64,000 bases of DNA from positions 10,583-74,582 of the forward strand of contig JASJAX010000006.1 of the NCBI GenBank assembly GCA_030066755.1. Direction: 5' to 3'. The notes under the pieces were generated by a model. The model made no database searches and was not told the origin of the DNA. It saw only the letters and a list, made by a program, of their open reading frames with translations. Made by a program: the position numbers and the translations under genes. Of the stretch, positions 8,002 to 64,000 are shown one piece after another. The stretch is from Acidimicrobiia bacterium (GTDB taxonomy: Bacteria > Actinomycetota > Acidimicrobiia > Spongiisociales > UBA5794). The number at the start of each line of letters is the position of its first letter. Positions within the stretch are counted from its first letter, which is position 1.

Positions 8002-8104
8002 TCTCCCTGATCTGATCGACGGACTCCGCGGTTGCTGACGAAGGCCCCTATGTCGGGTGTGGGTGCGATCCGTACCTTGGCGGTGGAACGCAGAAGGAGC
8101 CGGT

Positions 8105-9253
8105 GTGCCAGAGACCCTTGTCCTCGACCGGTCGGGATTGGCGTCGATTCTCTCCGAATTGCGCGCTCGCGACTATCTCCTGGTCGGTCCCACGATTCAG
8201 CAGGAGGCGATCGGCTACGGCCCGATCGATTCTCTTGACGACCTTCCACAAGGCTGGACGAACGTCCAATCGCCTGGTGCGTCTCACCTCGAACGACGCG
8301 ACGACGAGCGTCTGTTCGGGTACGTGGTGGGGCCGCACTCGTGGAAGAAGTACCTGATGCCCAACGAGGTGGTGATCTGGAGAGGGGAGCGCACCGACAC
8401 GGGGTTCGAGACGGTTCCGCCGGAGCCGGCTCCGGCCTATGCGCTGTTCGGCGTCCGTCCGTGTGAAGTGGCCGCGATCGCGGTCCAGGACGCCGTCTTC
8501 ATGCCGACCGACCGTGTCTACCGCGAGCGGCGGGAAGCGGCCTTCATCGTCGCCGTGAACTGCACGCAGGCAGGAGCGAATTGCTTCTGCACCTCGATGG
8601 GAACGGGTCCCGCCGTCGGCGAGGACGCGGTCTTCGACATCGCGTTCACCGAAGTCGACCGCAACGGAACCCTCGCCTATCTCGTCGAGGCGGGCTCCGA
8701 CGACGGGGCAGCCGTGCTGCAAACCGTCGTTGGGGCCGAGCCGGCGAGCGATGCAGATCTCGCGATGCTCGAGTCGGTCCTCCAGGAGGCGGCCGCCTCG
8801 GTGACCAAGACGATGGACACCGATGGCATCCACGACCTGATGCTGGCCAATCTGCGCAATGGCTATTGGGAGGACGTCGGCGGACGCTGCCTGGCGTGCA
8901 CGAACTGCACGATGGTGTGCCCGACCTGCTTCTGCAATACGGTCGAGGACACGATGACGCTCGACGGAACGACCGCCGAGCGAACACGCAAGTGGGACTC
9001 GTGCTTCTCGATCGACTTCTCGTACATCCACGGCGGTCCGCTGCGGATGACTCCCGAAGCCCGGTATCGGCAATGGCTGACCCACAAGCTGGCCACCTGG
9101 TTCGACCAGTACGGGACGTCCGGGTGCGTCGGGTGCGGGCGATGTATCACCTGGTGTCCCGTCGGCATCGACCTGACCGCTGAAGTCGCTGCACTTCGGC
9201 GGGTGGATGCACGACAAGGCCTGTCGGTTCCCCTCCCGGAGGTGATGGCATGA
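8105..9253 (+). CDS. hyhB: [NiFe]-hydrogenase group 3b beta subunit (sulfhydrogenase HydB / AsrA-like Fe-S protein)
   Basis: Multiple Cys clusters (CEVAAI..., CTQAGANCFC, CLACTNCTMVCPTCFC, CVGCGRCITWCP). The GTG start is preceded by the SD GAAGGAG at 8093-8099. It is followed by gamma, small and large subunit genes. Confidence 0.8.
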   Translation: MPETLVLDRSGLASILSELRARDYLLVGPTIQQEAIGYGPIDSLDDLPQGWTNVQSPGASHLERRDDERLFGYVVGPHSWKKYLMPNEVVIWRGERTDTGFETVPPEPAPAYALFGVRPCEVAAIAVQDAVFMPTDRVYRERREAAFIVAVNCTQAGANCFCTSMGTGPAVGEDAVFDIAFTEVDRNGTLAYLVEAGSDDGAAVLQTVVGAEPASDADLAMLESVLQEAAASVTKTMDTDGIHDLMLANLRNGYWEDVGGRCLACTNCTMVCPTCFCNTVEDTMTLDGTTAERTRKWDSCFSIDFSYIHGGPLRMTPEARYRQWLTHKLATWFDQYGTSGCVGCGRCITWCPVGIDLTAEVAALRRVDARQGLSVPLPEVMA

Positions 9254-9714
9254 CCACGACCCTCGACCAAGTCCTGGGCGCCCAGGCGTTCTTCGCCGGT
9301 CTCGACGACGAGCACCTGGCGACGCTGGCGTCCGTTGCCGAACCGGTCAGTGTGGCGATCGGGAGGAAGGTCTTCCACGAAGGCGACGTCGCCGACGCCT
9401 GCTACCTGCTGCTCGAGGGCGATGTTGCACTCGAGATGGACATCCCCGGCCGTGGGCCGCATGTCCTCCAGACACTCCATGCGGGCGACATGCTCGGATG
9501 GTCGTGGCTCGTGTCTCCGTTCCGGTACGCATACGACGCCCAAGCTCTCACCGAGGTCAAGGCCATTCGGTTCGATGCGGTCGCGCTTCGCTCCGCAAAG
9601 GACACCGACAAGGTCTTCGGCTACGAACTGATGCAGCGTTTCGCAGAAGTGCTGGTACGGCGGATGCAAGCGGCTCGTCTCCAACTCCTGGATGTCTATG
9701 GCAACGCTCACTGA
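9250..9714 (+). CDS. cyclic nucleotide-binding domain protein
   Basis: 154 aa. The cNMP-binding fold pattern is FFAGLDDEHLATLA...GRKVFHEGDVADACYLLLEGDVAL...LHAGDMLGWSWL. The SD GGAGG lies at 9238-9242. The ATG overlaps the hyhB stop (ATGA). The 3' end overlaps the hyhG start by about 23 nt. Confidence 0.75.
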   Translation: MTTTLDQVLGAQAFFAGLDDEHLATLASVAEPVSVAIGRKVFHEGDVADACYLLLEGDVALEMDIPGRGPHVLQTLHAGDMLGWSWLVSPFRYAYDAQALTEVKAIRFDAVALRSAKDTDKVFGYELMQRFAEVLVRRMQAARLQLLDVYGNAH

Positions 9715-10546
9715 ACTCACACCAAAGCTCGCCCCGATGGAGCCGGTGCCCTTCGTGGTCCGGAGCATCCGCGACGAGCTATCAGACACCTTCACCCTCG
9801 AGCTCGATCCGCCCGATGGCGTGTTCGAGTTCCTCCCCGGCCAGTTCACGATGCTGTACGTGTTCGGTATCGGCGAGGTCCCGATCTCCGTATCCGGTGA
9901 TCCGGCGCAGCCGTCGACGCTCGTACAGACGATCCGTGGGGTCGGCGCCGTCACCTACGCCCTCCGCCAGGTGCGGCCCGGTGACGTCGTTGGCGTCCGC
10001 GGCCCGTTCGGTACCGAGTGGCCGCTGGCCGAGGCGGACGGACACGACATCGTCTTCGTTGCCGGTGGCATCGGGCTCGCTCCGCTCCGTCCGGCGATCT
10101 ACTCGGTGCTGGCCAACCGGCAGCGCTACGGGAAAGTCGTGCTCCTCTACGGCGCTCGTAGCCCGAGCGACATGCTCTTCACCCAGGAGCTCCTCGAATG
10201 GGGAGGCCGGTACGACGTCGACGTGTTGATCACTGTTGACAACGCAGACCGGCAGTGGCGCGGGGCGGTCGGGGTGGTCACGAAGCTCGTACGGCGGGCC
10301 CCGTTCGATCCGCATGACACTGTTGCGATGGTCTGCGGGCCAGAGGTGATGATGCGATTCAGCGCCCAGGAGCTCGAAGGCCGCGGGGTCCCCCAGCATC
10401 GGATCCACCTGTCGATGGAGCGCAACATGAAGTGCGGCATCGGCCTGTGCGGCCATTGTCAGTTTGGAGGTCGGTTCGTCTGTTGGCAGGGCCCGGTGTT
10501 CTCCTACGACGAACTCGCTCCGTTGCTCTTGGTGAAGGAGGTGTGA
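9692..10546 (+). CDS. hyhG: [NiFe]-hydrogenase group 3b gamma subunit (FAD/NAD(P)-binding, 2Fe-2S; HydG/AsrB-like)
   Basis: Collinear with Pyrococcus HydG. Matching segments are [34 protein letters not shown] and the C-terminal [15 protein letters not shown] cluster motif. An alternative start lies at about 9737. Confidence 0.85.
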
Positions 10547-10547
10547 G

Positions 10548-11362
10548 GTGGCACACGCCGCTGCGGTAGCAACCAAGCCCAAACTGGCCGTGTACAAGTT
10601 CGCCTCGTGCGATGGATGCCAGCTGAGTCTGCTCGACGCCGAGGATGCGCTGCTGGACGTCGCCGGCGCCGTGCACATCGCCAACTTCCTCGAGGCATCG
10701 CGCGAGGTCGTGCCGGGCCCTTACGACGTCAGCCTCGTCGAAGGCTCGATCACGACACCGCACGATGCCGAACGGATCAAGCAGGTGAGGGCGGAATCGA
10801 AGTTCCTCGTCGTCATCGGAGCGTGCGCAACGGCCGGTGGGATTCAGGCGCTGCGAAACTGGAAGGACGTCGATTCGTTCACATCGATCGTCTACGCCAA
10901 CCCGCAGTACATCGAAACCCTCCAGACGTCGACGCCGATCTCGTATCACGTCCCGGTCGACTTCGAGCTGCGCGGCTGCCCGATCAGCAAGGAACAGCTG
11001 ATCGAGGTCGTTGCGGCTTTCCTGCAAGGTCGGCGACCGAACATCCCGACCTACAGCGTCTGCGTCGAATGTAAGGCCCGGGGCACGGCCTGCGTGATGG
11101 TGGGGGCAGGGACACCCTGTCTCGGTCCGGTGACGCAGGCAGGCTGCGGAGCGCTGTGTCCCGCCTACGACCGCGGCTGCTACGGGTGCTTCGGTCCCAT
11201 GGAGAGCCCCAACACGGAGGCGTTGGAGATGTGGTGGCGGGAACTCGGCGTCTCGGACCGCGACATCGTGGATGCGTTCCGGAGCTTCAATGCCTGGGCC
11301 GAACCGTTCCGCGAGGCATCTGATCGGGTCGAAGCCCGCCTCACCGTCACGGGGGTGACCGA

Positions 11363-11366
<4 letters not shown>
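10548..11366 (+). CDS. hyhS: [NiFe]-hydrogenase small subunit (delta)
   Basis: [26 protein letters not shown] and [11 protein letters not shown] are the proximal/medial cluster Cys motifs of small subunits. The GTG start is preceded by the SD AAGGAGGTG. Confidence 0.85.
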
Positions 11367-12658
<1,292 letters not shown>

Positions 12659-12662
12659 TTGG

Positions 12663-13172
12663 GTGTGTGATGGGGAACACCGGGGTGTCGTGATCGGGAT
12701 CGGGAACCGATTCCGGAGCGACGACAGCATCGGGCTACAGGTGCTCGATGCCGTGACACCCCGGCTCCCGTCATGCGTCGATGCCCTCGAGAGCAATGGT
12801 GATGCCATCGCTCTCGTGTCGAGCTTCGAACATGCGAGCTTGGCCGTCCTCATCGACGCCGTCCGCAGCGGAGGCAAGCCGGGGACGATCTACCGATTCG
12901 ACGGGAGCACCCGTCTCCCGACGAAGTTCTTCCGTGCGGCGTCGAGCCACGTGCTCGGTCTGAGCGAAGCGTTGGAGCTTGCCCGAGCGCTCGATCGCCT
13001 CCCGCACAAGATCGCCGTGGTTGGCATCGAAGCGGGCGACGTCGCTCACGGCGAGGAACTGTCGCCGGAAGCCGCGGCCGCGTTGCCTCGTGCCGCCGAT
13101 CTCGTTGTCCGACTGATGGATTCACTTCACCCGATGGAGGTGACGACCGAAGAAGAGGTGCGACATGCATGA
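12663..13172 (+). CDS. hydrogenase maturation endopeptidase (HycI/HoxW/HybD family)
   Basis: VVIGIGNRFRSDDSIGLQV matches the GxGNxxxxDDGxG protease motif. It lies immediately downstream of the large subunit gene. Confidence 0.7.
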   Translation: MCDGEHRGVVIGIGNRFRSDDSIGLQVLDAVTPRLPSCVDALESNGDAIALVSSFEHASLAVLIDAVRSGGKPGTIYRFDGSTRLPTKFFRAASSHVLGLSEALELARALDRLPHKIAVVGIEAGDVAHGEELSPEAAAALPRAADLVVRLMDSLHPMEVTTEEEVRHA

Positions 13173-31433: not shown

Positions 31434-32033
31434 TCAGCTCGCATTCGTGGCGCGAGCGACGACGCGGTCATAGACCGATCGTTCATGGACACCCGTGAAG
31501 ACGACGCCGTCGCCGACATGCCATCCGGGAGTGTTGCCGATCCCGAGATCGAGCGCCCGCTGGTGATGATGGGTCGCTTCCTGGAGTCCGGAGCCTTCGG
31601 CGAGTGCGGCGGCCGCACCGTCGCTGTCGATGCCCACCTCACGGGCGATCCGGAGGAGCACGGTCGGTTCTCCGAGATCGGCGCCCTCGGCCCAATAGGC
31701 GTGATAGAGCGCTTCGTGAAGGTCGGGCCAGTTGGGCTGGTCTGCCGCCCACACCGACAGACCGAGCGCTCGTCGTGTGTTGGACCACGTGACTCGTCGA
31801 ACGACGGGGAGTCCGGCGGCCTTCAGTTCGTCTCGCAACCACCGTGCCGCCCCGCTGCTCCGCCGAAGGTTCGGCGCCGGGCCACCTTCGGGCGGGATCT
31901 CGGGATGCAGCTCGAATGGGCGCCAGACCATCGTTGCCCCATGCTGCTCTCTCAGGTAGCGGACGCGGTCCTGGGCGAGGTAGCACCAGGGACAGAGGTA
32001 GTCGGCCCAGTACTCGATCGTGAGATCCGCCAT
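31434..32033 (-). CDS. DsbA family oxidoreductase (FrnE-like thioredoxin-fold)
   Basis: IEYWADYLCPWCY shows a CPWC active site in a DsbA-like context. Confidence 0.75.
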   Translation of the reverse strand: MADLTIEYWADYLCPWCYLAQDRVRYLREQHGATMVWRPFELHPEIPPEGGPAPNLRRSSGAARWLRDELKAAGLPVVRRVTWSNTRRALGLSVWAADQPNWPDLHEALYHAYWAEGADLGEPTVLLRIAREVGIDSDGAAAALAEGSGLQEATHHHQRALDLGIGNTPGWHVGDGVVFTGVHERSVYDRVVARATNAS

Positions 32034-42404: not shown

Positions 42405-42518
42405 AGAAAACGGACGTCTCCGTAGGGAGGAGGAGTGGGGGGTGCACGCGAGTGTACTTCTACTCCGAGATATCGATACTCGGGATCGGTCATAGGGGCG
42501 GCGGGTACCATGCGCGCC

Positions 42519-44201
42519 ATGACCGGAGACCTGAATCGCACCAGCCGCCGCATCACGCAAGAGGCATCACAGGGAGGGTCCCAGGCGATGCTCTTCGCCA
42601 CCGGGCTCACCCCGGACGACATGGGCAAGGCCCAAGTCGGGATCGCTGCGATGTGGTACGAGGGCAACTCGTGCAACATGCACCTCAACGATCTCGCCGC
42701 ACGAGTCCGTGACGGGGTGATGGCATCCGACATGGTCGGTATGCGCTTCAACACGATCGGAGTGTCCGACGGTATGTCGATGGGCACCGACGGGATGAGC
42801 TTCTCCCTGCAGTCGCGTGACCTCATCGCCGACTCGATCGAAACCGTCATGCGGGCGCACTGGTACGACGCCAACGTCTCGATTCCCGGCTGCGACAAGA
42901 ACATGCCGGGCTCGATCATCGGGATGGCACGGGTCAACGTCCCATCGCTGATGATCTACGGCGGCACGATTCGTGCCGGCCACCGATCCGACGGCACGCC
43001 GATCGACATCGTCTCAGCGTTCCAGTCGTACGGCGAGATGATCGCCGATCGCCTGAGCAACGACGAGCGGCTGGACATCGTCCGCAACGCCTGCCCCGGA
43101 GCCGGCGCTTGCGGTGGCATGTACACGGCCAACACGATGGCGTCGGCCATCGAGGCGCTCGGCATGACGCTGCCGTACAGCTCGTCGACGCCCGCCACCG
43201 ATCCGGCGAAGCTCGACGAGTGTTTCCGAGCCGGCGCGGCAATCCGGAGCCTGCTCGAGGACAACATCACGCCACGTGACATCATGACCCGGGCCGCGTT
43301 CGAGAACGCGATGGTGCTCACGATGGCGCTCGGTGGATCGACGAACGCCGTGCTGCACCTCCTCGCCATGGCGAGGGCAGCCGATGTCGACCTGCAGCTC
43401 GACGACTTCCAGGCGACGAGCGACCGAGTTCCGTTCCTCGCCGACCTCAAGCCGAGCGGCCGGTACGTGATGGAAGACCTGCACGCGGTCGGCGGCACAC
43501 CTGCGGTCCTCAAGCTGCTGCTCGAGCACGACGCCATCGACGGTTCCTGCCTCACCGTGACCGGTCGGACGCTCGCAGAGAACCTCGCCGACCTGCCGGG
43601 ACTCGCCGATGACCAGCGGATCGTGCAGCCATGGGACCAGCCGATCAAGGACTCAGGCCACATCCAGATCCTCCGCGGCAACCTCGCCCCGGACGGTGCC
43701 GTGGCCAAGATCACCGGCAAAGAAGGCCTGCGTTTCTCGGGCACGGCCAAGACGTTCGATCGTGAAGAGGACATGGTGCCGGCGCTCGAGCGAGGCGAGA
43801 TCGGACCGGGCGACGTGGTCGTCATCCGCTACGAGGGGCCCAAGGGAGGCCCAGGGATGCCCGAGATGCTGACCCCGACGTCGGTCATCGTCGGAGCGGG
43901 TCTCGGCAACGACGTTGCTCTCATCACCGACGGCCGGTTCTCCGGCGGATCCCACGGCTTCATCATCGGCCACGTCACGCCCGAAGCGCAGGTGGGCGGT
44001 CCGATCGCCCTGGTCGAGGACGGCGACATCATCACGATCGATGCCACGACCCGGTCGATTTCGGTCGACCTCGACGACGAGGAGTTGACTCGCCGCCGCG
44101 CTGCCTGGACGGCCCCGCCCCTCAAGGCGACCCGTGGCACCCTGCACCGCTACATCAAGACGGTGAAGTCGGCGAGCGAAGGCTGTGTGACCGACGAATA
44201 G
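42519..44201 (+). CDS. ilvD: dihydroxy-acid dehydratase
   Basis: [27 protein letters not shown] and the GHV...[16 protein letters not shown] cluster motifs are canonical for IlvD/EDD. Confidence 0.9.
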
Positions 44202-44313: not shown

Positions 44314-44757
44314 GTGCTGTTGCGCGAACGATCGGACCAGGCTGTCGAGCTTTCGATTGTGGGCTACCAGTTCGAGAATGCTTCTGACGAATGGGATCGG
44401 AACTGGCTGGTTGTCGAAGGCCACGTCCACCTGCCGGGGCAGGAGTGGCGTTTTCGTGATCCTTGCCTCACCACTTGGGAGGCCCACGAGCTGGCTGCCT
44501 GGCTCTCGAACGTCTCCGCAGCTCGGTCGGCGGACACCGCAATCTCGTTCACTGAGCCGAATCTGTGTTTCGAGTGGCAAGGCGTATCGAGCGAGTTCGT
44601 GGAAGTCCGAGTGTCCTTCGAACTCGAAGCGCGACCCGCTGAGATGCGGAACCTCCCGTGGGGTGGCTGCTACGTCGATCTCACGATTGGGCGCAGCGAT
44701 CTTGCGGCAGCCGGCACGGATTTGCTCCTCGAACTGATGGACTATCCGCAGCGCTGA
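44314..44757 (+). CDS. hypothetical protein
   Basis: 147 aa with coding-like composition. No motif recognised. Confidence 0.4.
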   Translation: MLLRERSDQAVELSIVGYQFENASDEWDRNWLVVEGHVHLPGQEWRFRDPCLTTWEAHELAAWLSNVSAARSADTAISFTEPNLCFEWQGVSSEFVEVRVSFELEARPAEMRNLPWGGCYVDLTIGRSDLAAAGTDLLLELMDYPQR

Positions 44758-44759
44758 GC

Positions 44760-44810
44760 GGTCTCGGTACTCAGTACTCGGTACCAAGTACTGCGCAGCT
44801 ACGCTGCGCA
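44760..44810. repeat. GTCTCG + (GTACTCR)x2 + GTACCAA + GTACTG, then hairpin TGCGCAGC-TAC-GCTGCGCA
   Basis: Between the hypothetical gene stop and the SelW-like ATG (44812). The hairpin ends 1-2 nt before the ATG. Confidence 0.85.
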
Positions 44811-44811
44811 C

Positions 44812-45048
44812 ATGAAGCTCTCTATCGAATACTGCGCTGCTTGAGGGTATACCGACCGTGCCGTGCGCATGGCTCAACACATCCTCGACAACTTCGAGCA
44901 CAAGATCGACGACCTCACCATCATCCCGAGCAAGGGTGGCGTGTTCGAGGTTCTCGCCGACGACACACTGATCTACTCCAAGAAGGCCACCGGCGTCCAC
45001 GCAGAGGTTGGTGACGTGATGGTCCCCCTGCGGGAGCTCATCGGCTGA
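44812..45048 (+). CDS. SelW/Rdx family selenoprotein (in-frame UGA at 44842-44844)
   Basis: ATG 44812 reads MKLSIEYCAA-U-GYTDRAVRMAQHILDNFEHKIDDLTIIPSKGGVFEVLADDTLIYSKKATGVHAEVGDVMVPLRELIG*. CAAUGY aligns with the CGAUGY redox motif of SelW. GGVFEV...LIYSKK aligns with GFFEV...LIHSKKK. Eleven nt after the UGA is the stem CCGUGC/GCAUGG with loop CGUGC. The ORF track only reports the part from internal GTG 44863. Confidence 0.65.
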
Positions 45049-45054
45049 CCGCGG

Positions 45055-46620
45055 TCAGTCGACCCAGCTCTCGATCAGCGGATCGATCGGGATGTCTTCG
45101 CCCCCGACCAGGACGTGGTGCACTCGCGTCCTGCGGAGTTCGTCGGGCGTTGACGTGATGGGATCACGGTCGACGACGATCAGATCCGCCTGACTTCCCG
45201 CCGCCAACGGTTGAGACTCGCCGAGCGCGGCGGCCGCCCCGTTCGTGAACAGGTCGAGGGCCGCCTCGGCGTCGAGCGCCTCTGCCGGGACGATGCCGTT
45301 GCGATCCCGGGCGAGCGCCATTCCCGACCACGGATCCGGCGGCTCGACCGGCGAGTCGGAGCCGGCCGCCAGCATCACGCCATCACGGACCATCGACGCG
45401 AAGGGGTAGGCCATCGGCATCCGCTCGGCCCCCAGACGGTCCTCGAGCCAGTCGGCTTCGGAACCCAGGAACGCGGGCTGGACACAGCCGACGATTCCGA
45501 GTCGAGCCATTCGGCGCACGTCCTCCGGGTCGATGACGGATGCATGTTCGATCCTGGCCGTGCCGGGTGCCGCCCCCAGGTCCTCGAACAGATCGATGAC
45601 CCGCCGGCAGGCCAGGTCCCCGATGGCGTGGATGGCAACCGTCCCGCCGAGGTCGAAGCAGTGCTGTGCGAGTGTCCGATCGATGTCGTCGAGGCGCATC
45701 GTTCCGCGCTCGTGAGGTGCATCTGCGAACGGGTCGATCATGGCCGCTGTGTGCCCCCCGAGACTGCCGTCGGCAAAACGTTTGAGCCCTGCCCATCGCA
45801 AACGCGAGGAGCGCCCGGTGAGGAGAGATCGGCCCTCGTCCAACTCACCGACGGAGTTGGCGATGACGAACCCGTGGACCCGTAGCGGGAGCCGATCGGC
45901 CACCGAGGCGAGGAGTTCCGCCTCGTTGCCCAGGCTGGCCCATGGTCCGTCGCCGATTCGAACCATTGCGCCGATGCTCGTGATCCCCAACGAAGTGAGT
46001 GCGGTCAAGGCACGAAGCAGGTCGTCTTGCATCACCGGGGCCGTGCCGGCCAGCGCTTTCGACACGATCTCGATGGCCGTTTCGCGCAAGACGCCGGTTG
46101 GTTCTCCGGCCTCGTTCCGGTCGATCACGCCACCCGGCGGATCCGGAGTGGCTGATGTCACTCCGGCCTGCGCGAGCGCAGCTGAGTTCGCCACCGCAAC
46201 GTGCCCGCAATAGCGGTGCACGAGGACCGGGCGATCCGCAACTGCGTCGTCCAGGTCGGCACGGGTCGGCAGACGGCGCCCGGCAAGGGTCTCATCGTCC
46301 ATGCGCAGTGCCACGATGGCGCCCGGCCGCTTCGCTGCGGCGCCTCGGAGCCGGTCGGCGAGATCGGCCAGATCAGTCGCGGTCTTGAGCGAGACACCCG
46401 TGAGCAACGCCGCATAGGGAACCGGATGCAGATGGGCGTCGCGCAGCCCCGGAAGAATCGTTGCCCCCACAAAGCTCTGCTCGTGCACCCCGGGAGCGCG
46501 GAGGGTCGCCGCCGATCCGACGGCCACGACCTTTCCGCCTTCGACCAAGACGGCGTTGGAATCTGCGGGGCCTCCGGTGGCACGGACCCGATCGGCGACG
46601 AGGAGGCGCCGGCGGGTCAC
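45055..46620 (-). CDS. amidohydrolase family protein (metal-dependent hydrolase, amidohydrolase-3 like)
   Basis: LPGLRDAHLHP..., a later HxH, a D near the C-terminus, and a length of 521 aa. The GTG start overlaps the SuhB-like stop. Confidence 0.75.
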   Translation of the reverse strand: MTRRRLLVADRVRATGGPADSNAVLVEGGKVVAVGSAATLRAPGVHEQSFVGATILPGLRDAHLHPVPYAALLTGVSLKTATDLADLADRLRGAAAKRPGAIVALRMDDETLAGRRLPTRADLDDAVADRPVLVHRYCGHVAVANSAALAQAGVTSATPDPPGGVIDRNEAGEPTGVLRETAIEIVSKALAGTAPVMQDDLLRALTALTSLGITSIGAMVRIGDGPWASLGNEAELLASVADRLPLRVHGFVIANSVGELDEGRSLLTGRSSRLRWAGLKRFADGSLGGHTAAMIDPFADAPHERGTMRLDDIDRTLAQHCFDLGGTVAIHAIGDLACRRVIDLFEDLGAAPGTARIEHASVIDPEDVRRMARLGIVGCVQPAFLGSEADWLEDRLGAERMPMAYPFASMVRDGVMLAAGSDSPVEPPDPWSGMALARDRNGIVPAEALDAEAALDLFTNGAAAALGESQPLAAGSQADLIVVDRDPITSTPDELRRTRVHHVLVGGEDIPIDPLIESWVD

Positions 46621-52291: not shown

Positions 52292-52400
52292 CGTGTGTCC
52301 CGGCTGCGCTGATCTGCCATGTGCGAGATTCTGCATATACCATGCGTCGGGAAGGCCAGCGCTGCGGAGGCGCCATGCGAGCATCCAACTCGGTTCATCG

Positions 52401-53924
52401 ATGACCGATCGTCTGCGTGCCTTCTTCCCGCGACCCGTCACCGGCGACATCGTCGCCGGTGTCAGTGTGTCGCTGATCTTGATCCCCCAGGCTTTGGCCT
52501 ACGCCGACCTCGCCGGCTTGCCGCCGGTGTATGGCCTGTTCGCCGCCGCTCTCCCGCCGATCGTCGCCGCCATCTTCGCTTCGTCGCCATATCTGCAGAC
52601 CGGACCGGTGGCGATGACCGCCTTGCTCACGTTCGGGGCCCTGAGTCAGCTCGAGACTCCCGGATCCATGGAGTATGTGAAGCTCGCTGCCCTGCTGGCG
52701 TTGATCGTCGGGGTGGTGCGCGTGATCGTCGGCTCGCTTCGCGCCGGAGCGGTGGCGTACTTGATGTCACAGCCGGTCATCCAGGGGTTCACCGGCGGCG
52801 CGGCGATCCTGATCATCGCCTCGCAGCTGCCGACGGCGCTCGGTGCCGATGCTCCAGATGGCGGGGTGCTGCGCCGGGCTTGGTGGAGTGTCACGAACTT
52901 CAGTGAATGGGAGCTCGCCGCGGTTGCGATCACCCTCCTAGCGGCGTCGCTCCTGACCTTCGGCTCCAGGATCCACCCGCTGTTTCCCAGCGTGCTCGTC
53001 GCGGTTGCTGCTGCGCTCGTCTGGTCCATGATCACCGACTACTCAGGTCAGATCGTCGGCGAGGTCCCGGGTGGTCTCCCGCCGTTCTCGCTGGCGTTGC
53101 CGTGGAGCCGCTTCACCGACATCGCCGTCGCCGGTGCGGTGATCGCCCTCGTCGGATTCGCGGAACCGGCGTCGATCGCCCGGGCGTACGCGGCGCGGGA
53201 GCGGACACCATGGAGTCCCGATCGCGAGTTCCTCAGCCAGGGTGCCGCCAACCTCGCATCCGGCATCTCGGGAGGGTTTCCGATTGGTGGATCGTTCTCG
53301 CGGACGTCGGTGAATCACCTCGCCGGCGCCAAGACACGATGGAGTGGCGCCGTCACGGGACTCGTCGTATTTGCGTTCCTGCCGTTTGCCGGGATCATCG
53401 AGGACCTTCCCCGCGCCGTGCTGGCGGCCATCATCATCGTGGCGGTCGCCAAGCTGATCCGAGTGCCGGCGCTGCTCTCGTTGTGGAAGTACTCGAAGCC
53501 GCAGGCGCTGGTCGCCTACGTGACCTTCGGTGCAACATTGGTATTGGCGCCACGGATCGATCAAGCCGTGCTCGTCGGCATCGTGACGGCGATCGCAATC
53601 CACCTCTGGCGTGAACGGGTTGTCTCCGTCGAACTGGAGGTGCGTCGCGGCGGTGTGGCCCGGATCCGGCCTCAGGGTGTGTTCTGGTTCGGTTCGGCGC
53701 CCGACCTCGCAGAGGCGATGAACGAGCTGATGGGTGCGTATCCCGAGGCCGACACCATCGAGATCGACCTCGGCGGGCTCGGCCGGATCGACTACTCCAG
53801 TGCGGTGATGCTGCGGGACATGGTGAACGACGCCCGCAAGGCCGGATACGAAGTCGACGTGATCGCCGTCCCGGAGCACGCCCGCCGCATCTTGCGCGCC
53901 GTGTGGGCCGAGGAGATCAGGTAG
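52401..53924 (+). CDS. SulP family inorganic anion (sulfate) transporter with STAS domain
   Basis: Polytopic core with a C-terminal STAS-like domain. Motifs include GLPPVYGLF. Confidence 0.85.
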   Translation: MTDRLRAFFPRPVTGDIVAGVSVSLILIPQALAYADLAGLPPVYGLFAAALPPIVAAIFASSPYLQTGPVAMTALLTFGALSQLETPGSMEYVKLAALLALIVGVVRVIVGSLRAGAVAYLMSQPVIQGFTGGAAILIIASQLPTALGADAPDGGVLRRAWWSVTNFSEWELAAVAITLLAASLLTFGSRIHPLFPSVLVAVAAALVWSMITDYSGQIVGEVPGGLPPFSLALPWSRFTDIAVAGAVIALVGFAEPASIARAYAARERTPWSPDREFLSQGAANLASGISGGFPIGGSFSRTSVNHLAGAKTRWSGAVTGLVVFAFLPFAGIIEDLPRAVLAAIIIVAVAKLIRVPALLSLWKYSKPQALVAYVTFGATLVLAPRIDQAVLVGIVTAIAIHLWRERVVSVELEVRRGGVARIRPQGVFWFGSAPDLAEAMNELMGAYPEADTIEIDLGGLGRIDYSSAVMLRDMVNDARKAGYEVDVIAVPEHARRILRAVWAEEIR

Positions 53925-57726: not shown

Positions 57727-58851
57727 TCATTCGGACAACGCACACTCGTTTCGTCCGACCTCGAGCTCCATGGCTTCGTCGTGGGTCGGGATGTGCCAGC
57801 CCATGTTGACTTCGCGGATCGTGGCGTAGACCCCGGGCGCCTCGCCGAGATGGGAGACCACGTACGCAACGAACTCGCCCTCGTCGTCCATCGACACGAC
57901 CGGATCGTTGGCGAGGAGGTCACCGAGCTTGCGCCGTAGCGTTCCATCGGCCTGCGACTCGAGGCGGCTCGTGTAGTGGGCCGGGCAGACCTCGAGCTCC
58001 GAGTCGAGTGGTGCCAGCTGCTCGTGGATCGTGCGGAACAGATCGCGCGCCCACGGTTCCGTCTCGCCACCGAGGTCGGGTCTGCCGACCCCCGACACGA
58101 AGACTGCGTCACCCGTCATGAGGTAGCGGCCGTCGACCTCGAGCGAGGTGGACCCAGGGGTGTGTCCGGGAGTTGCCACCGACCGAACGATGATCTGCAT
58201 CGTGCCGAGTTGGAAGACGGCACCGTCGGTGAGCGCGTCGTACTTGAAGTGGGCTCCCTCGGCGTCGCCCGGTGCGATGTGATAGGTCGCCCCGAACTCG
58301 GCGGCCATCTGCACCCCGAGGGAGAGGTGGTCGGCGTGCAGGTGAGTGTCGAACACGTCGGTGATCTCGCACTCCATGTCGGCGGCGATCCGCTCGTACG
58401 CTGATGCGTCTCCGGCCGGGTCGATCACCGCCATCGACGATCCGCGAGATCCGACGGCGTACGACAGGCACGCCTTGGCGATTCGATCGAGCTGGACGAC
58501 GAACTTGGTCCCGTCGTCATACAGGACGTGCGGGACCAGGGTGCGTGCCCAGGCGTCCATTCCTCCGGCGAGGTTGTGCAGGTTGTCGAGCCCCAAGGTC
58601 TCGACGACGAGGTCGGATGAGTCGCCGTGCGCACATACGACGACTACCTCGCGGTCGTGGGGCACGACCTCCCTGGTCTCCTCGTCGTCGACGATCGCCG
58701 TCCAGTACGGGATGTTGAGGGTGGCCATGTCGGCCTTCCCCTCGATCTGCCATCGCTCGAACTGATCGGGTGCGCGAACGTCGAGAATGAATGGCGCAGA
58801 ATCGGGATCGTCGACGCGTCGGGCCAACTCGTCGGTCGTGATGGCAGTCAC
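57727..58851 (-). CDS. rhodanese-domain / MBL-fold persulfide-dioxygenase-like fusion protein
   Basis: N-terminal rhodanese domain (ILDVRAPDQFERWQIEG...VVVVCAHGDSS). C-terminal metallo-beta-lactamase domain with HLHADH. GTG 58851 is preceded by a GGGGAGAGAG SD-like sequence. An alternative ATG lies at 58887. Confidence 0.7.
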   Translation of the reverse strand: MTAITTDELARRVDDPDSAPFILDVRAPDQFERWQIEGKADMATLNIPYWTAIVDDEETREVVPHDREVVVVCAHGDSSDLVVETLGLDNLHNLAGGMDAWARTLVPHVLYDDGTKFVVQLDRIAKACLSYAVGSRGSSMAVIDPAGDASAYERIAADMECEITDVFDTHLHADHLSLGVQMAAEFGATYHIAPGDAEGAHFKYDALTDGAVFQLGTMQIIVRSVATPGHTPGSTSLEVDGRYLMTGDAVFVSGVGRPDLGGETEPWARDLFRTIHEQLAPLDSELEVCPAHYTSRLESQADGTLRRKLGDLLANDPVVSMDDEGEFVAYVVSHLGEAPGVYATIREVNMGWHIPTHDEAMELEVGRNECALSE

Positions 58852-58937
58852 AGGCTCTCTCCCCAGGTCGCATGCGTCAAGGCGCATACAACTCTAACGA
58901 GGCGCGGCGATCCGCCACAAGGAGTTTCTGCGTTTCG

Positions 58938-60223: not shown

Positions 60224-61831
60224 CTGAGATACGGTTTCGTCATCGACCAGACCACGTGCATCGGCTGTCACGCGTGCACCGTCGCCTGCAAGACCGAGCA
60301 CGAGGTGCCGCTCGGCGTGAACCGCACGTGGGTGAAGTACGTCGAGAAGGGTGCGTGGCCCGACACGAAGCGGTTCTTCTCGGTGATGCGCTGCAACCAT
60401 TGCAGTGACGCGCCGTGCGTCGACATCTGCCCGACCACGGCCCTCTTCAAGCGCACCGACGGCATCGTGGACTTCGACACCGACCGGTGCATCGGATGCA
60501 AGTCGTGTATGCAGGCCTGTCCGTACGACGCCCTCTACATCGACCCGGGCGAGCACACCGCTCAGAAGTGCAACTACTGCGTACATCGAGTCGAGGTGGG
60601 GATCGAACCGGCATGTGTGGTGGTGTGCCCCGAACAAGCGATCATCGCCGGTGACCTGGACGACCCGACGACGAAGATCGCTCAAATGGTGAAGACCGAG
60701 CGGCTCTATCAGCGTGCGCCAGAGCAGGGCACGAGCCCCAACCTCTGGTACCGCGGGGTCGAGGAGGCCAACATCGATCCACTCGTCGCCGCCGACCCCG
60801 GTGACGGTGGCGTGTGGAAGGACCCTGCCCGCTCATGGCTGTCCGTGGATCTGACGCCGCCGACGGTGTCCCCGGACACGGCACAGGTGGCGCCGAATGC
60901 ACCACCACGCGTCGAGTACGACGGCCCCAAGGGTGCGCCGCGGGTTGTCTACAACACCGACCACCCGATGCCGTGGGGTTGGAGAGTTTCGAGCTACTTC
61001 CTCACCAAGGGCATTGCCGCAGGGTTGGTGATTCCACTCGCGCTGGCGTTGATCTTCGGTAGCAATGAACGAGACTTCTCCGGCGCTGACTCCGCCTGGG
61101 CTCTGTGGGGCGTGCCGCTGTTCGCCGGCTTGTTCCTCGCGCTCACCGGAGCCCTGCTGGTGTGGGACTTGAAGCGCCCCGACCGGTTCTACTACCTGCT
61201 CACCAAGGGCAATCCCGGTTCGTGGCTGGTTCGCGGCGCGTGGATCCTGAGTGCGTTTGCCGGAGTCGTTGCGCTGTGGTTCTTACTCGGCGTCTTCGAT
61301 GTGGGCGGTGACGATGCGATCACGGTGCTGGCTGCGATCGCCGCCGTCATCGGGCTCGGCGTTGCGGGATACACCGCGCTGCTCTTCGGCCAGGCCGAGG
61401 CGCGTGACCTCTGGCAGAGCCCGATGCTGCTGTGGCACATGCTCGCCGGTGCGTTGGCCGCCGGCGGCGGGGCCGGGCTCGTTTTCGGTTTGGTCTTCGA
61501 TCTCAGCGCCGGCACCGAACGCTGGTACGCCGGGTCGATGGTCGTCGGTGCTGCCGCACTCGGCCTGATCGCGCTCGTCGAGCTGATGTCAAAGCACCCG
61601 ACCCGCAATATCACGGAGGCGATGCACCACATGACGCACGGCGCGTACGCCCGTGAATGGTGGATCGGTGGCCAGCTCGTCGGCGTCGTTGTTCCCGTCG
61701 TGCTCGGCCTGGTGTTCCTCTCCGGCGCCGGTCTGTGGACGGGTGCCATCGGGGGCCTCGCTGCGTGTGCCGGGATCTGGTTCGCCGACGATGCGTTCGT
61801 GAAGGCCGGCCAGAGCGTTCCGCTTTCCTGA
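60224..61831 (+). CDS. fused 4x[4Fe-4S] ferredoxin (PsrB/NrfC-like) and NrfD/PsrC-like membrane anchor subunit
   Basis: The frame reads (L)RYGFVIDQTTCIGCHACTVAC...CNHCSDAPCVDICP...CIGCKSCMQACP...CNYCVHRV, four Cys clusters. Eight TM helices follow, with DLKRPDRF (NrfD motif). The only start consistent with keeping the first cluster is CTG 60224, 7 nt after SD GGAGGA (60211-60216). The in-frame stop is at 60146. Confidence 0.7.
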   Translation: MRYGFVIDQTTCIGCHACTVACKTEHEVPLGVNRTWVKYVEKGAWPDTKRFFSVMRCNHCSDAPCVDICPTTALFKRTDGIVDFDTDRCIGCKSCMQACPYDALYIDPGEHTAQKCNYCVHRVEVGIEPACVVVCPEQAIIAGDLDDPTTKIAQMVKTERLYQRAPEQGTSPNLWYRGVEEANIDPLVAADPGDGGVWKDPARSWLSVDLTPPTVSPDTAQVAPNAPPRVEYDGPKGAPRVVYNTDHPMPWGWRVSSYFLTKGIAAGLVIPLALALIFGSNERDFSGADSAWALWGVPLFAGLFLALTGALLVWDLKRPDRFYYLLTKGNPGSWLVRGAWILSAFAGVVALWFLLGVFDVGGDDAITVLAAIAAVIGLGVAGYTALLFGQAEARDLWQSPMLLWHMLAGALAAGGGAGLVFGLVFDLSAGTERWYAGSMVVGAAALGLIALVELMSKHPTRNITEAMHHMTHGAYAREWWIGGQLVGVVVPVVLGLVFLSGAGLWTGAIGGLAACAGIWFADDAFVKAGQSVPLS

Positions 61832-61847
61832 GGAGGATGACGACACC

Positions 61848-64000
61848 ATGACGACGCAGCGGGACGATCGTATCCCCCGTCTCCTCCCGGGGAGCGAGCT
61901 GACCAACTTCCCACCGCCGGACCGGTGGGACGACTGGGTCGAGTACGACGCACGGGCCTGGCCGAATCGGGTGACCCACGAGTACCGACTCGTGCCGACG
62001 ACGTGTTTCAACTGCGAGTCCGCGTGCGGGCTGCTCGCGTACGTCGACAAGGAGACGGGTGACGTTCGCAAGTTCGAAGGTAATCCCGCGCATCCAGGAA
62101 GTCGCGGCCGCAACTGTGCCAAGGGTCCCGCGACGATCAACCAGATGTACGACCCGGAGCGGATCCTCCACCCGATGCGTCGCGTCGGCGAGCGGGGTTC
62201 GGGCCAGTGGGAGCAGGTCAGCTGGGAGGAGGCGCTCCAGGACATCGCCGGTCGGATGCGCACCGCCATCCAGGAGGGACGTCAGGACGAGATCATGTAT
62301 CACGTCGGGCGGCCCGGCGAAGACGGGTTCATGGATCGCACGCTCAAGGCCTGGGGCGTCGACGGGCACAACAGCCACACGAACATCTGCTCGTCGGGAG
62401 CCCGCACCGGCTATGCCATGTGGATGGGTCACGATCGACCGTCAGCCGACTTCGCCAACGCCCGGTTCATCCTCCTGCTGTCATCGCACCTCGAGACCGG
62501 CCACTACTTCAACCCCCACGCCCAGCGGATCATGGAGGGGAAGCAGTCCGGAGCGAAACTCGCCACCATCGATCCGAGGCTCTCGAACACGGCGTCGATG
62601 TCGGACTACTGGCTGTCGCCGTGGCCGGGGACTGAGGCTTCGATCCTCCTCGCCATCGCCAATCTCCTGCTCGAGTGGGATGCGGTCGACCACACGTTCA
62701 TGAAACGCTGGGTCGACTGGGAGGGCGCGCTCGAGGCGAAGGCCCCGGGCGAGCCGAAGACGTACGAGCGGTTTGTCCAACTCCTCCGTGACACCTACGC
62801 CGGCTACACGGTGGAGTTCGCCGCAGCGGAGTCTGGCGTCGATGCCGAGCGGATCGATGCGGTGGCGCGAGGCATCGCCGAGGCCGGACACCAGTTTGCG
62901 TCGCACACGTGGCGGTCGGCCGGCTCAGGCAACCTCGGTGGTTGGCAAGTCGCCCGATGCCTGTGGTTCCTCCACGTGCTCACGGGCGCCGTCGGCACGC
63001 GTGGCGGGACCTCGCCGAGTGCGTGGGACAAGTTCAAGCCCGCGCACTGGAACATGCCGCCGCCGCACAGCCGATGGAACGAGCTGCTGTGGCCCAAGGA
63101 GTACCCGTTCAGCCACCACGAGCTCTCGATCCTGCTCCCGCATCTCTTGAAGGAGGGCCGCGGCAAGGTCGACGTGTACTTCAGCCGCGTCTACAACCCG
63201 ATCTGGACCAACCCGGACGGGTTCTCGTGGCTCGAGGCGTTGACCGACGAGTCGAAGGTCGGGTTGCACGTGGCGATGACGCCGACGTGGTCCGAAACGG
63301 CCTGGTTCGCCGACTACGTCCTGCCCATGGGGGTGGCCTCAGAGCGTCACGACACCCATTCCTATGAAACCCACGCCGGCCGCTGGCTCGGTTTCCGCCA
63401 GCCGGTCTTGCGGGTCGCAGCCGAGCGTGATGGCAAGCAGTTCGATCGCACCTACGAGGCCAACCCCGGAGAGGTGTGGGAAGAAACGGAGTTCTGGATC
63501 GACCTGTCCTGGCGCATCGACCCGGACGGATCGCTCGGGATCAAGGAGTGGTTCCAGTCGCCGAATGACCCCGATCGGCCGGTGTCGGTCGACGAGTACT
63601 ACGGATGGATGTTCGAGAACAGTGTGCCCGGTCTCCCCGAGAAGGCGGCGGCCGAAGGGATCACTCCGCTCCAGTTCATGCGGAAGTACGGCGCCGTCGA
63701 AGTGGAGAAGGACATCTACAAGGTCCACGAGCGCCCGGCGGCCGCCGACGCTCCAGGGGTGACCGTTGAGGGTGATCGGAAGACCGGCTTCAACTCGCCG
63801 AGCCGCAAGCTCGAGTGGTACTCGCAAACGATGGACGAGTGGGGGTGGCACGAGGAAGCGATTCCGACCTACCTCAAGACGCACGTCTACTGGCGCGACC
63901 TCGACCTGGCCGGCAACGAACGGGTCCTGTTGCCGATCTTCCGGCTCCCGACGCTCATCCACACCCGGTCCGGCAACGCCAAGTACCTGTACGAGATCAG
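61848..64000 (+). CDS. molybdopterin (bis-MGD) oxidoreductase catalytic subunit, no Tat signal (3' end outside window)
   Basis: The N-terminal CFNCESACGLLAYVD...GRNCAKG is the MopB [4Fe-4S] motif. HTNICSSG may be the Mo-ligand region. There is no RRxFLK motif. SD GGAGGA lies at 61832-61837. Confidence 0.8.
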   Translation, partial: MTTQRDDRIPRLLPGSELTNFPPPDRWDDWVEYDARAWPNRVTHEYRLVPTTCFNCESACGLLAYVDKETGDVRKFEGNPAHPGSRGRNCAKGPATINQMYDPERILHPMRRVGERGSGQWEQVSWEEALQDIAGRMRTAIQEGRQDEIMYHVGRPGEDGFMDRTLKAWGVDGHNSHTNICSSGARTGYAMWMGHDRPSADFANARFILLLSSHLETGHYFNPHAQRIMEGKQSGAKLATIDPRLSNTASMSDYWLSPWPGTEASILLAIANLLLEWDAVDHTFMKRWVDWEGALEAKAPGEPKTYERFVQLLRDTYAGYTVEFAAAESGVDAERIDAVARGIAEAGHQFASHTWRSAGSGNLGGWQVARCLWFLHVLTGAVGTRGGTSPSAWDKFKPAHWNMPPPHSRWNELLWPKEYPFSHHELSILLPHLLKEGRGKVDVYFSRVYNPIWTNPDGFSWLEALTDESKVGLHVAMTPTWSETAWFADYVLPMGVASERHDTHSYETHAGRWLGFRQPVLRVAAERDGKQFDRTYEANPGEVWEETEFWIDLSWRIDPDGSLGIKEWFQSPNDPDRPVSVDEYYGWMFENSVPGLPEKAAAEGITPLQFMRKYGAVEVEKDIYKVHERPAAADAPGVTVEGDRKTGFNSPSRKLEWYSQTMDEWGWHEEAIPTYLKTHVYWRDLDLAGNERVLLPIFRLPTLIHTRSGNAKYLYEI

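What the first reader, a model, noticed from the sequence alone, without database searches (positions are those of the whole stretch)
44812..45048. Unannotated SelW/Rdx-family selenoprotein gene with in-frame UGA and a SECIS-like hairpin
The ORF track only shows a 61-aa ORF starting at an internal GTG (44863). Reading upstream in the same frame from ATG 44812 gives MKLSIEYCAA-TGA-GYTDRAV.... That is a CxxU redox motif (CAAUGY) essentially identical to the CGAUGY motif of SelW. The downstream GGVFEV...LIYSKK also matches the SelW/Rdx beta-strand region. Eleven nt after the UGA lies the stem-loop CCGUGC-CGUGC-GCAUGG, with G and U in its apical loop. That is the spacing and loop content expected for a bacterial SECIS element. 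This looks like a genuine selenocysteine-containing gene that standard gene callers will miss. Its presence implies the organism has Sec machinery (selABCD).
Basis: partly seen in the sequence, partly recalled or inferred. Interest (0 to 1): 0.8.

Follow-up and report, generated by a model that had tools for sequence, protein, structure and literature searches.

The report
Missed SelW-like selenoprotein gene, confirmed
This is a real but ordinary selenocysteine-containing SelW-like (Rdx family) redox protein gene in an Acidimicrobiia bacterium; gene callers cut it to 59-61 residues because they read its in-frame UGA as a stop.

Summary
Window 44812-45048 (+) reads MKLSIEYCAA-UGA-GYTDRAV...LIYSKK...-stop. 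With U written as C, the 78-aa product matches Pfam Rdx at 70.1 bits, against 41.4 bits for the called 61-aa ORF.

Comparative data settle the interpretation:
- All 87 orthologous loci fetched, including 80 species representatives (mostly Acidimicrobiia/Actinomycetota), keep TGA at this codon.
- Codons 1-10 are conserved as protein, with synonymous variation. Conservation stops exactly at the ATG.
- More distant homologs carry Cys at the position.
- A hairpin with an invariant G-U in its loop follows the UGA in every ortholog. It occurs in two registers, with compensatory changes and unusual synonymous codons. It is the only conserved hairpin in the gene.
- Most orthologs carry a TANNNT box 6-7 nt before the ATG, which suggests a leaderless mRNA. 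The rest have a Shine-Dalgarno-like motif.

Not shown: the Sec machinery. No selA/B/D or tRNA-Sec lies in the window or in any fetched DNA, and the genome itself could not be searched.

Bacterial SelW-like CxxU selenoproteins have been known since 2005, so this is a new member of a known kind.

The parts
44800..44805 (+). TACGCT, a -10-like hexamer (TANNNT) ending 6 nt before the ATG; inferred promoter of a leaderless mRNA
   Evidence: TANNNT ends 6-8 nt before the start codon in 63 of 78 distinct orthologous upstream regions and at no other offset from -3 to 14. 56 of those 63 have no Shine-Dalgarno-like motif. No transcription start data exist.
44812..45048 (+). Complete selenoprotein gene: 77 sense codons plus Sec at codon 11, with a TGA stop at 45046-45048. 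Product: MKLSIEYCAAUGYTDRAVRMAQHILDNFEHKIDDLTIIPSKGGVFEVLADDTLIYSKKATGVHAEVGDVMVPLRELIG
   Evidence: Pfam Rdx 70.1 bits, profile positions 2-68 of 74. TIGR02174 49.6 bits against a cut-off of 34.2. PDB relatives 2fa8, 3dex, 2oka, 2obk, 2ojl, 2p0g.
44812..44814 (+). True start codon ATG
   Evidence: Amino-acid conservation begins exactly here. There are 14-18 different residues per column upstream, with frequent stop codons at -3. Met is present in 68/79 at codon 1.
44833..44844 (+). Redox motif Cys8-Ala-Ala-Sec11 (TGC GCT GCT TGA), i.e. CxxU
   Evidence: Cys8 79/79 and TGA 79/79 in distinct orthologs. The motif aligns with the CTQC of 2fa8_A.
44842..44844 (+). In-frame UGA read as selenocysteine (inferred)
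   Evidence: TGA in 87/87 loci. Cys occupies this position in distant homologs.
44842..44887 (+). SECIS-like element. Lower helix 44842-48 with 44881-87. Upper stem 44854-61 with 44867-75 (C44873 bulged). Apical loop 44862-66, CGUGC.
   Evidence: RNAfold. Upper stem: 94.3% of cells paired in 55 orthologs against 23-40% when slid, and 3 pairs with compensatory changes. Lower helix: 81.8% paired. G22 and U23 (44863-64) are invariant. It is the only conserved hairpin in the first 192 nt of the gene.
44863..44871 (+). Internal GTG (44863) and ATG (44869) that ORF finders and gene callers wrongly use as the start
   Evidence: 61-aa ORF; all database entries are 58-60 aa fragments starting at this Met. 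The Met is absent in 26 of 79 orthologs.

Best explanation
Window 44812-45048 (+) is one gene for a 78-residue SelW-like (Rdx family) thiol/selenol oxidoreductase with an N-terminal Cys8-x-x-Sec11 redox centre.

Proposed mechanism:
- Translation starts at ATG 44812, probably on a leaderless transcript made from the TACGCT -10 box 6 nt upstream.
- At codon 11 the UGA is not read as a stop. The hairpin that begins 11 nt downstream has an apical loop with an invariant G-U, 17 nt after the UGA. It acts as a bacterial SECIS and recruits SelB-GTP-Sec-tRNA(Sec) to the A site, so selenocysteine is inserted and translation continues to the TGA at 45046.
- The protein then cycles between a selenenylsulfide (Cys8-Sec11) and the reduced form, as proposed for SelW/Rdx proteins. 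Its physiological substrate is unknown.

Shown here: family membership, conservation of the UGA, protein-level selection on both sides of it, Cys in distant homologs, a conserved and covarying hairpin, and conserved start signals.

Inferred: Sec insertion itself, SelB binding, the leaderless transcript and the redox role.
For: 1. Family. With U written as C the product scores 70.1 bits on Pfam Rdx (profile 2-68 of 74). The called 61-aa ORF scores 41.4, so the 17 N-terminal residues add about 29 bits. TIGR02174 CXXU_selWTH scores 49.6 against a cut-off of 34.2. Solved Rdx proteins match at E 1e-11 to 2.5e-6, with CaaU aligned on their CxxC.

2. UGA conservation. All 33 closest database proteins are 47-60 aa fragments (32 of them 58-60 aa). 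The DNA of 87 loci, 80 of them different GTDB species down to 51% identity, has TGA at the aligned codon in every case and never a Cys codon.

3. Translation on both sides of the UGA. Codons 1-10 and 12-30 are conserved as amino acids with free synonymous change: E6 is GAA 42 / GAG 37, and S4 and L3 each use six codons. The ten codons before the ATG show no conservation and frequent stops.

4. Sec/Cys pairs. More distant full-length homologs have CxxC (for example CGVCGY, CADCGY). Others have 'W', which is presumably TGA translated with genetic code 4.

5. SECIS.
- Every distinct ortholog has a hairpin just after the UGA, in one of two registers.
- Register 1: 55 sequences plus the window, stem at positions 13-20/26-33, loop NGUNN.
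- Register 2: 23 sequences, CCGUC-[GA]GUNU-GRCGG at positions 20-24/30-34.
- In register 1, 94.3% of cells pair, against 23-40% when slid. Compensatory changes occur at three pairs, for example Arg CGU to CGC together with Met AUG to Ala GCG.
- Rare synonymous codons are kept where they pair or sit in the loop: Arg16 is CGT in 54/73 against a 13% background, and Gly is GGT in 20/20 in register 2 against 19%.
- No other hairpin in the first 192 nt is conserved in more than 43% of sequences.

6. Start. A -10-like TANNNT lies 6-8 nt before the ATG in 63/78 loci. Eleven others have a Shine-Dalgarno-like motif instead. Three of the remaining four have an ATG a few codons further upstream. All candidate starts are upstream of the CxxU motif.

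7. TGA is the normal stop codon here: 30 of 37 confident genes in the window end in TGA, so the codon is not reassigned.

8. Literature.
- SelW-like CxxU proteins were the most abundant selenoprotein family in the Sargasso Sea (PMC1088965).
- They have few Cys homologs in Sec-using bacteria (PMC1794560).
- Actinomarina (order Actinomarinales, class Acidimicrobiia) genomes all carry selA, selB, selC and selD (bioRxiv 10.64898/2026.04.03.716425).
Against: - No selA, selB, selD or tRNA-Sec lies in the 64-kb window. This rests on a Pfam scan of 50 ORFs and ARAGORN.
- None lies in the roughly 646 kb of related loci either (ARAGORN and tblastn). The rest of the genome could not be examined.
- On single-sequence thermodynamics the hairpin is not distinguishable from shuffles (z = -0.9).
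- No Rfam family matches.
- Part of the stem conservation is forced by conserved amino acids (DRAV). Within register 2 there is almost no covariation.
- The binomial figures for codon choice ignore the relatedness of the sequences.
- There is no transcript, proteomic or selenium-labelling data.
Confidence: 0.92

Rival explanations
1. The UGA is a true stop. The locus would then encode a 10-residue upstream peptide (MKLSIEYCAA) and, separately, a 59-61 residue truncated Rdx-domain protein that starts at GTG 44863 or ATG 44869, as annotated in all databases.
For: All public gene calls for this protein and its relatives are fragments of 58-60 aa that start at the internal Met. No Sec machinery was seen in the window.
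Against: - The stretch between the UGA and the internal Met (GYTDRAV) is conserved in frame as protein. Y13 is 78/79, and A17 and V18 are 79/79 with synonymous variation.
- The internal Met is missing in 26 of 79 orthologs (Leu in register 2). Truncated calls elsewhere begin at varying positions.
- The truncated product would lack strand beta-1 and the whole redox motif of the family, and it loses 29 bits of Pfam score.
- Start signals (-10 box or SD) sit before the upstream ATG, not before the internal one.
Confidence: 0.03
2. The UGA is decoded, but not as selenocysteine. It would be read by near-cognate read-through (Trp, Cys or Arg) or through a lineage-specific reassignment of UGA.
For: Several database homologs are written with W at this position. 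The Sec machinery is unverified for this genome.
Against: - TGA terminates 30 of 37 confident genes in the window, including this one, so it is not reassigned.
- The 'W' entries fit metagenome gene calling with code 4 rather than biology. This is an inference.
- The position aligns with the second, catalytic Cys of CxxC in Cys homologs and in solved structures. That is the signature of Sec, not Trp.
- A conserved hairpin with G-U in its loop at SECIS distance has no role in simple read-through.
Confidence: 0.03
3. The gene is a pseudogene, or the TGA is a sequencing or assembly error in a gene that originally had Cys (TGC/TGT).
For: A single base change turns TGC or TGT into TGA.
Against: The same TGA is found in 87/87 independent assemblies from 80 or more species, with purifying selection on both sides. 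The exact 59-aa fragment recurs on 12 contigs read, from several different assemblies.
Confidence: 0.01

Closest known systems
Bacterial SelW-like selenoproteins (CxxU), described in the Sargasso Sea and GOS selenoproteomes and in comparative genomics (PMC1088965, PMC1794560)
   Same: A small protein of about 75-80 aa in the Rdx family. N-terminal CxxU. SECIS hairpin inside the coding sequence just after the UGA, with G in the apical loop. Few Cys forms among close relatives. Routinely missed by gene callers.
   Different: - The lineage is Acidimicrobiia and other Actinomycetota MAGs.
- The mRNA is probably leaderless.
- Two alternative SECIS registers occur within one orthologous group.
- None of these changes the kind of element.
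Mammalian selenoprotein W (SELENOW)
   Same: CxxU followed by GY (CGAUGY versus CAAUGY here). The GxFEV...hSKK region. BLASTP gives 32% identity over 59 residues, E 3e-11 for the single comparison.
   Different: The eukaryotic SECIS lies in the 3' UTR and works through SBP2/eEFSec. The protein is longer at its C-terminal end. Identity is low, so this is a family relative, not an ortholog.
Cys-containing Rdx proteins with solved structures: Atu0228 (2fa8), SAV_2001 (3dex), 2oka, 2obk, 2ojl, 2p0g
   Same: Alignable over residues 2-76 at E 1e-11 for 2fa8. The CxxC aligns with CxxU.
   Different: They use Cys instead of Sec, are about 25 residues longer and come from Proteobacteria or Streptomyces.
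E. coli fdhF SECIS, the archetypal bacterial SECIS (from my own knowledge, not tested here)
   Same: A hairpin that begins at or just after the UGA. The apical loop carries G-U, which SelB recognises. The register-2 loop GGUCU resembles the fdhF loop GGUC. The UGA itself pairs at the base of the helix.
   Different: The upper stem is shorter (6-8 bp) and the sequence differs. No bulged U has been defined. SelB binding is untested.
NCBIfam NF041051 SelTWH_Campy (equivalog of the Campylobacterota SelT/W/H seleno-protein)
   Same: Best-scoring NCBIfam model, 72.1 bits over nearly the full length.
   Different: The score is below the model's cut-off of 88 bits, so the protein is not a member of that equivalog.

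Membership tests
Rdx family (Pfam PF10262; SelW/SelT/SelH/Rdx12) | Match to the family HMM above the gathering score | tested here: met
   70.1 bits against a cut-off of 22.6, profile positions 2-68 of 74, with U written as C.
Rdx family (Pfam PF10262; SelW/SelT/SelH/Rdx12) | CxxC or CxxU redox motif after the first beta-strand at the N-terminus | tested here: met
   C8-A-A-U11 aligns with CTQC of 2fa8_A and with CxxC of 3dex and 2oka. Cys8 is invariant in 79/79.
Rdx family (Pfam PF10262; SelW/SelT/SelH/Rdx12) | Thioredoxin-like fold | not tested
   Only inferred, from sequence homology to six solved Rdx structures.
NCBIfam TIGR02174 CXXU_selWTH (subfamily) | Score above the curated cut-off | tested here: met
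   49.6 bits against 34.2.
NCBIfam NF041051 SelTWH_Campy (equivalog) | Score above the curated cut-off | tested here: not met
   72.1 bits against 88.
Bacterial selenoprotein gene | In-frame UGA with protein-level conservation on both sides | tested here: met
   Codons 1-10 and 12-30 are conserved with synonymous variation. There is none upstream of the ATG.
Bacterial selenoprotein gene | UGA conserved in orthologs and Cys at the same position in other homologs | tested here: met
   TGA in 87/87 loci. Homologs at about 35-45% identity have CxxC.
Bacterial selenoprotein gene | SECIS: a stem-loop shortly downstream of the UGA with G (and U) in a small apical loop. The distance criterion is quoted from my own knowledge of the bSECISearch model. 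| tested here: met
   The loop starts 17 nt (register 1) or 21 nt (register 2) after the UGA. G-U is invariant in the loop. Covariation and slide controls support it. It is the unique conserved hairpin.
Bacterial selenoprotein gene | selA, selB, selC (tRNA-Sec) and selD present in the same genome | not testable with these tools
   None in the window and none in the fetched loci. The genome is not available. At class level, Actinomarina genomes (class Acidimicrobiia) have all four (bioRxiv 10.64898/2026.04.03.716425).
Bacterial selenoprotein gene | Selenium found in the protein (75Se labelling or mass spectrometry) | not testable with these tools
   Requires an experiment.
Rfam SECIS families | Covariance-model match | tested here: not met
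   No match at gathering score in the window. No SECIS match at E up to 10 in 44700-45150. The Actinomarina preprint also reports that the Rfam SECIS models it tried (RF00031, RF01988-RF01990) fail on bacterial SECIS elements, so this says little.

The most novel reading that the evidence does not exclude
The gene may be translated from a leaderless mRNA. Sec recoding would then take place at codon 11, 30 nt from the 5' end of a transcript that starts at the AUG, with the SECIS at nt 43-64.

The whole orthologous group is Sec-only across 80 or more species of Acidimicrobiia/Actinomycetota and some Chloroflexota. It has kept the SECIS by switching between two registers.

I know of no experimentally described leaderless bacterial selenoprotein mRNA, and a literature search found none.
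Probability: 0.55. Interest if true: 0.4.

Novelty: new member of a known kind. Interest (0 to 1): 0.3.

Why it matters
The practical point is annotation. Every public copy of this protein and of its relatives examined here (33 database clusters and 12 contigs carrying the identical fragment) is recorded as a 58-60 residue fragment without its active site. Selenium use in Acidimicrobiia, an abundant soil, sediment and marine class, is therefore under-counted.

The gene marks its host as a probable selenocysteine user. It also gives a clean 80-species alignment of a bacterial SECIS with two alternative registers, which is useful for training SECIS and selenoprotein predictors.

It does not reveal a new kind of system. 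The biochemical role of bacterial SelW-like proteins remains unknown.

Tried and rejected
- Rfam at gathering score on the window, and at E up to 10 around the gene: no SECIS family matched.
- Single-sequence folding significance: z -0.9 and -0.5, not informative in 65% G+C sequence.
It was run instead with residues 12-78.
- Scan of the window for other in-frame TGA codons flanked by high-GC3 coding sequence: three hits, all gene boundaries or antisense shadows. The thresholds were crude and would also have missed this gene.
- The [NiFe] hydrogenase large subunit was checked as a possible second selenoprotein. It has DPCISC, the Cys form.
- ARAGORN on the window and on the loci: no tRNA of any kind.
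- tblastn of E. coli SelD, SelA and SelB against all held DNA: no hits.
- Supplementary tables of the Actinomarina preprint were searched to see whether its 78-aa 'uncharacterised' selenoprotein family is this one. They hold no sequences, so the link remains a guess.
- A SelD, SelA or SelB search of the large protein database was considered, to be matched to the long contigs that carry the ortholog. I did not run it: with only an E. coli query the Acidimicrobiia proteins would rank far below what is listed, and the cost is high.
- The consensus promoter and terminator scan found nothing near the gene.

Full report
**Observation**

- On the + strand, ATG 44812 opens a frame that reads MKLSIEYCAA, then TGA (44842-44844), then GYTDRAVRMAQHILDNFEHKIDDLTIIPSKGGVFEVLADDTLIYSKKATGVHAEVGDVMVPLRELIG, then TGA at 45046-45048.
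- The mechanical ORF list shows only 44863..45048, 61 aa, starting at GTG.
- The hairpin CCGUGC-CGUGC-GCAUGG occupies 44856-44872 and starts 11 nt after the UGA.
- RNAfold extends it to an 8-bp upper stem (44854-61 with 44867-75, C44873 bulged). It adds a lower helix in which the UGA itself (44842-48) pairs with 44881-87, for -17 kcal/mol in total.
- On its own the fold is unremarkable for 65% G+C sequence: z = -0.9.

**Family**

- With U written as C, the 78-aa product matches Pfam Rdx (PF10262) at 70.1 bits over profile positions 2-68 of 74. The 61-aa ORF scores 41.4 bits and covers only profile positions 18-68.
- It passes NCBIfam TIGR02174 'CXXU_selWTH' (49.6 against 34.2). It fails the Campylobacterota equivalog NF041051 (72.1 against 88).
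- Six solved Cys-containing Rdx proteins match at E 1e-11 to 2.5e-6. Their CxxC aligns with CaaU.

**Is the UGA decoded?**

- All 33 nearest proteins in the 5.8-billion-protein collection are fragments of 47-60 aa, 32 of them 58-60 aa, that begin at the Met after the UGA.
- Reading the DNA shows why. In orthologs at 98%, 80% and 66% identity, the frame continues upstream through a TGA to an ATG, with the peptide MKL[ST]IEYCAA.
- A scan of one genome per GTDB species found 286 relatives, and the best 80 were fetched. Almost all are Acidimicrobiia or other Actinomycetota MAGs, with a few Chloroflexota.
- All 87 loci held, the window included, have TGA at the aligned codon and none has a Cys codon.
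- Column by column over 79 distinct sequences:
  - Conservation starts exactly at codon 1. Upstream there are 14-18 different residues per column and frequent stop codons.
  - E6, Y7, C8, A17 and V18 are invariant as amino acids but vary synonymously (GAA 42 / GAG 37; Ser4 and Leu3 each use six codons).
  - TGA is present in 79/79.
- Both sides of the UGA are therefore under protein-level selection in one frame.
- An exhaustive HMMER search with residues 12-78 found mostly truncated calls. It also found full-length homologs at about 35-50% identity. Of 18 I read, ten have Cys at the U position (CGVCGY, CADCGY, CAECGF and others). Seven have 'W', which I take to be TGA translated with genetic code 4.
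- TGA is not reassigned in this genome: 30 of 37 confident genes in the window end in TGA.

**SECIS**

Every distinct ortholog folds into a hairpin just after the UGA, in one of two registers.
- Register 1 covers 55 sequences including the window. The stem is at positions 13-20/26-33, counted from the U of UGA. The loop is NGUNN, with G22 and U23 invariant.
- Register 2 covers 23 sequences. It reads CCGUC-[GA]GUNU-G[AG]CGG at positions 20-24/30-34, with G26 and U27 invariant. Here the peptide is AVGLT instead of RAV[RS]M.

Evidence that the RNA itself is under selection:
- In register 1, 94.3% of cells form pairs, against 23-40% when the partner is slid by 1-3 columns.
- Three pairs show compensatory double changes. 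In one, the synonymous change Arg CGU to CGC accompanies Met AUG to Ala GCG. In another, Asp GAC to GAU accompanies G to A at position 31.
- The lower helix that includes the UGA is 81.8% paired.
- Synonymous sites are biased toward bases that pair or that sit in the loop. Arg16 is CGT in 54 of 73 sequences, against 13% of Arg codons in the window's genes. Gly in the register-2 loop is GGT in 20 of 20, against 19%. These binomial figures ignore the relatedness of the sequences.
- As an internal control that keeps both phylogeny and coding constraint, I scanned the first 192 nt of the gene for any hairpin conserved in register. The post-UGA hairpin is the only one, and the next best is present in 39-43% of sequences. 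Register 1 was defined by having the hairpin, so its 100% is by construction. The 91-96% in the remaining sequences is not.
- Rfam has no matching family.

**Start of translation**

- A TANNNT hexamer (TACGCT, 44800-44805, in the window) ends 6-8 nt before the start codon in 63 of 78 distinct upstream regions. It occurs at no other offset examined. 56 of the 63 lack any Shine-Dalgarno-like motif.
- Eleven others have GGAGG-like motifs instead. Three of the last four have an ATG a few codons further upstream.
- This is the layout of actinobacterial leaderless mRNAs, with a -10 box and transcription starting at the A of AUG. That reading is my inference from general knowledge; there are no transcript data.
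- Either way, all start signals lie before the CxxU motif.

**Context**

- The gene is monocistronic. Upstream lie ilvD (42435-44198) and a WapI-like gene (44314-44754). Downstream, convergent and only 6 nt away, lies an Amidohydro_3 gene (45058-46620), followed by inositol monophosphatase and Lnt.
- The order ilvD - Rdx - amidohydrolase - IMPase - Lnt is kept in relatives. It suggests no functional partner.

**Sec machinery**

- Pfam scans of 50 window ORFs show no SelA or SelB domains and no AIRS-type protein that could be SelD. ARAGORN finds no tRNA.
- The window's genome is not in the collections as a long contig. The exact 59-aa fragment occurs on 12 contigs read, all 20 kb or shorter and from several different assemblies.
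- The requirement therefore remains untested for this organism.
- At class level, a 2026 preprint reports selA, selB, selC and selD in all 84 complete Actinomarina genomes (class Acidimicrobiia). It reports about five selenoproteins per genome, the commonest being an unassigned 78-aa family (bioRxiv 10.64898/2026.04.03.716425). Whether that family is this one could not be checked.

**Comparison with what is known**

- Bacterial SelW-like CxxU selenoproteins were the most abundant selenoprotein family in the Sargasso Sea data, with 48 Sec forms against 7 Cys forms (PMC1088965).
- They are listed among the families with few or no Cys homologs in Sec-using bacteria, and Actinobacteria are one of three selenoprotein-rich phyla (PMC1794560).
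- The present gene fits that description in every tested respect. The differences are the lineage, the probable leaderless mRNA and the two SECIS registers.

**Verdict**

- It is a new member of a known kind. Interest is modest (0.3). The value lies in correcting annotation and in flagging Acidimicrobiia as selenocysteine users, not in any new mechanism.

Noticed in passing
window 44763-44792; also L027, L029, L031, L038, L042, L043, L051, L060 (the 70 nt before the start codon of the ortholog): About four tandem copies of a 7-nt unit (GTACTCA GTACTCG GTACCAA GTACTGC) sit directly upstream of the -10-like box (TRF period 7/14). Orthologous loci with unrelated sequence carry period-7 repeats in the same place, for example GGGCATC x4, TGTCGGC x3 and GTAACCG x3. 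Period 7 is the only period from 3 to 12 with 5 loci at 20 or more of 28 self-matches; other periods give 0-1 loci and shuffles give 0. I have no explanation.
   Followed up: partly
window 44800-44811 and the same position in 63 of 78 orthologous loci: A TANNNT hexamer ends 6-8 nt before the ATG and usually has no Shine-Dalgarno motif. This implies a leaderless selenoprotein mRNA with the UGA at codon 11.
   Followed up: partly
window 8057-13169: A [NiFe] hydrogenase gene cluster. It comprises a Fer4_22 protein, a cNMP-binding protein, an NAD-binding/FeS subunit, a small subunit (Oxidored_q6), a 431-aa large subunit ending in DPCISCATH (the Cys form, not Sec) and a HycI-type protease. It resembles the soluble, bidirectional group-3 type. 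The resemblance is from memory and was not tested.
   Followed up: partly
window 60305-61828: A single ORF fuses a 4Fe-4S dicluster domain (Fer4_11) to an NrfD-type membrane subunit. The catalytic partner was not identified. The region 61831-64000 was not annotated.
   Followed up: no
window 44314-44754: A WapI-like immunity-protein family gene (Pfam PF24716, E 4e-32) lies between ilvD and the selenoprotein gene. It is present in the closest relatives (L006, L087-L092) but not in the 80%-identity relative L004. No toxin partner was seen nearby.
   Followed up: no
window 57730-58887, 52293-53921, 31437-32033: Sulfur-related genes are scattered in the window. They are a rhodanese + metallo-beta-lactamase fusion (persulfide-dioxygenase-like), a SulP transporter and a DsbA-like protein in its Cys form.
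   Followed up: no
P0037, P0040, P0045, P0063, P0078, P0095, P0128 (representative library): Public protein entries of this family are written with Trp at the Sec position (EYCAAWNY, YCTSWGY and others). The likely cause is that TGA was translated with genetic code 4 during metagenome gene calling. This is a second kind of mis-annotation of the same selenoprotein.
   Followed up: no
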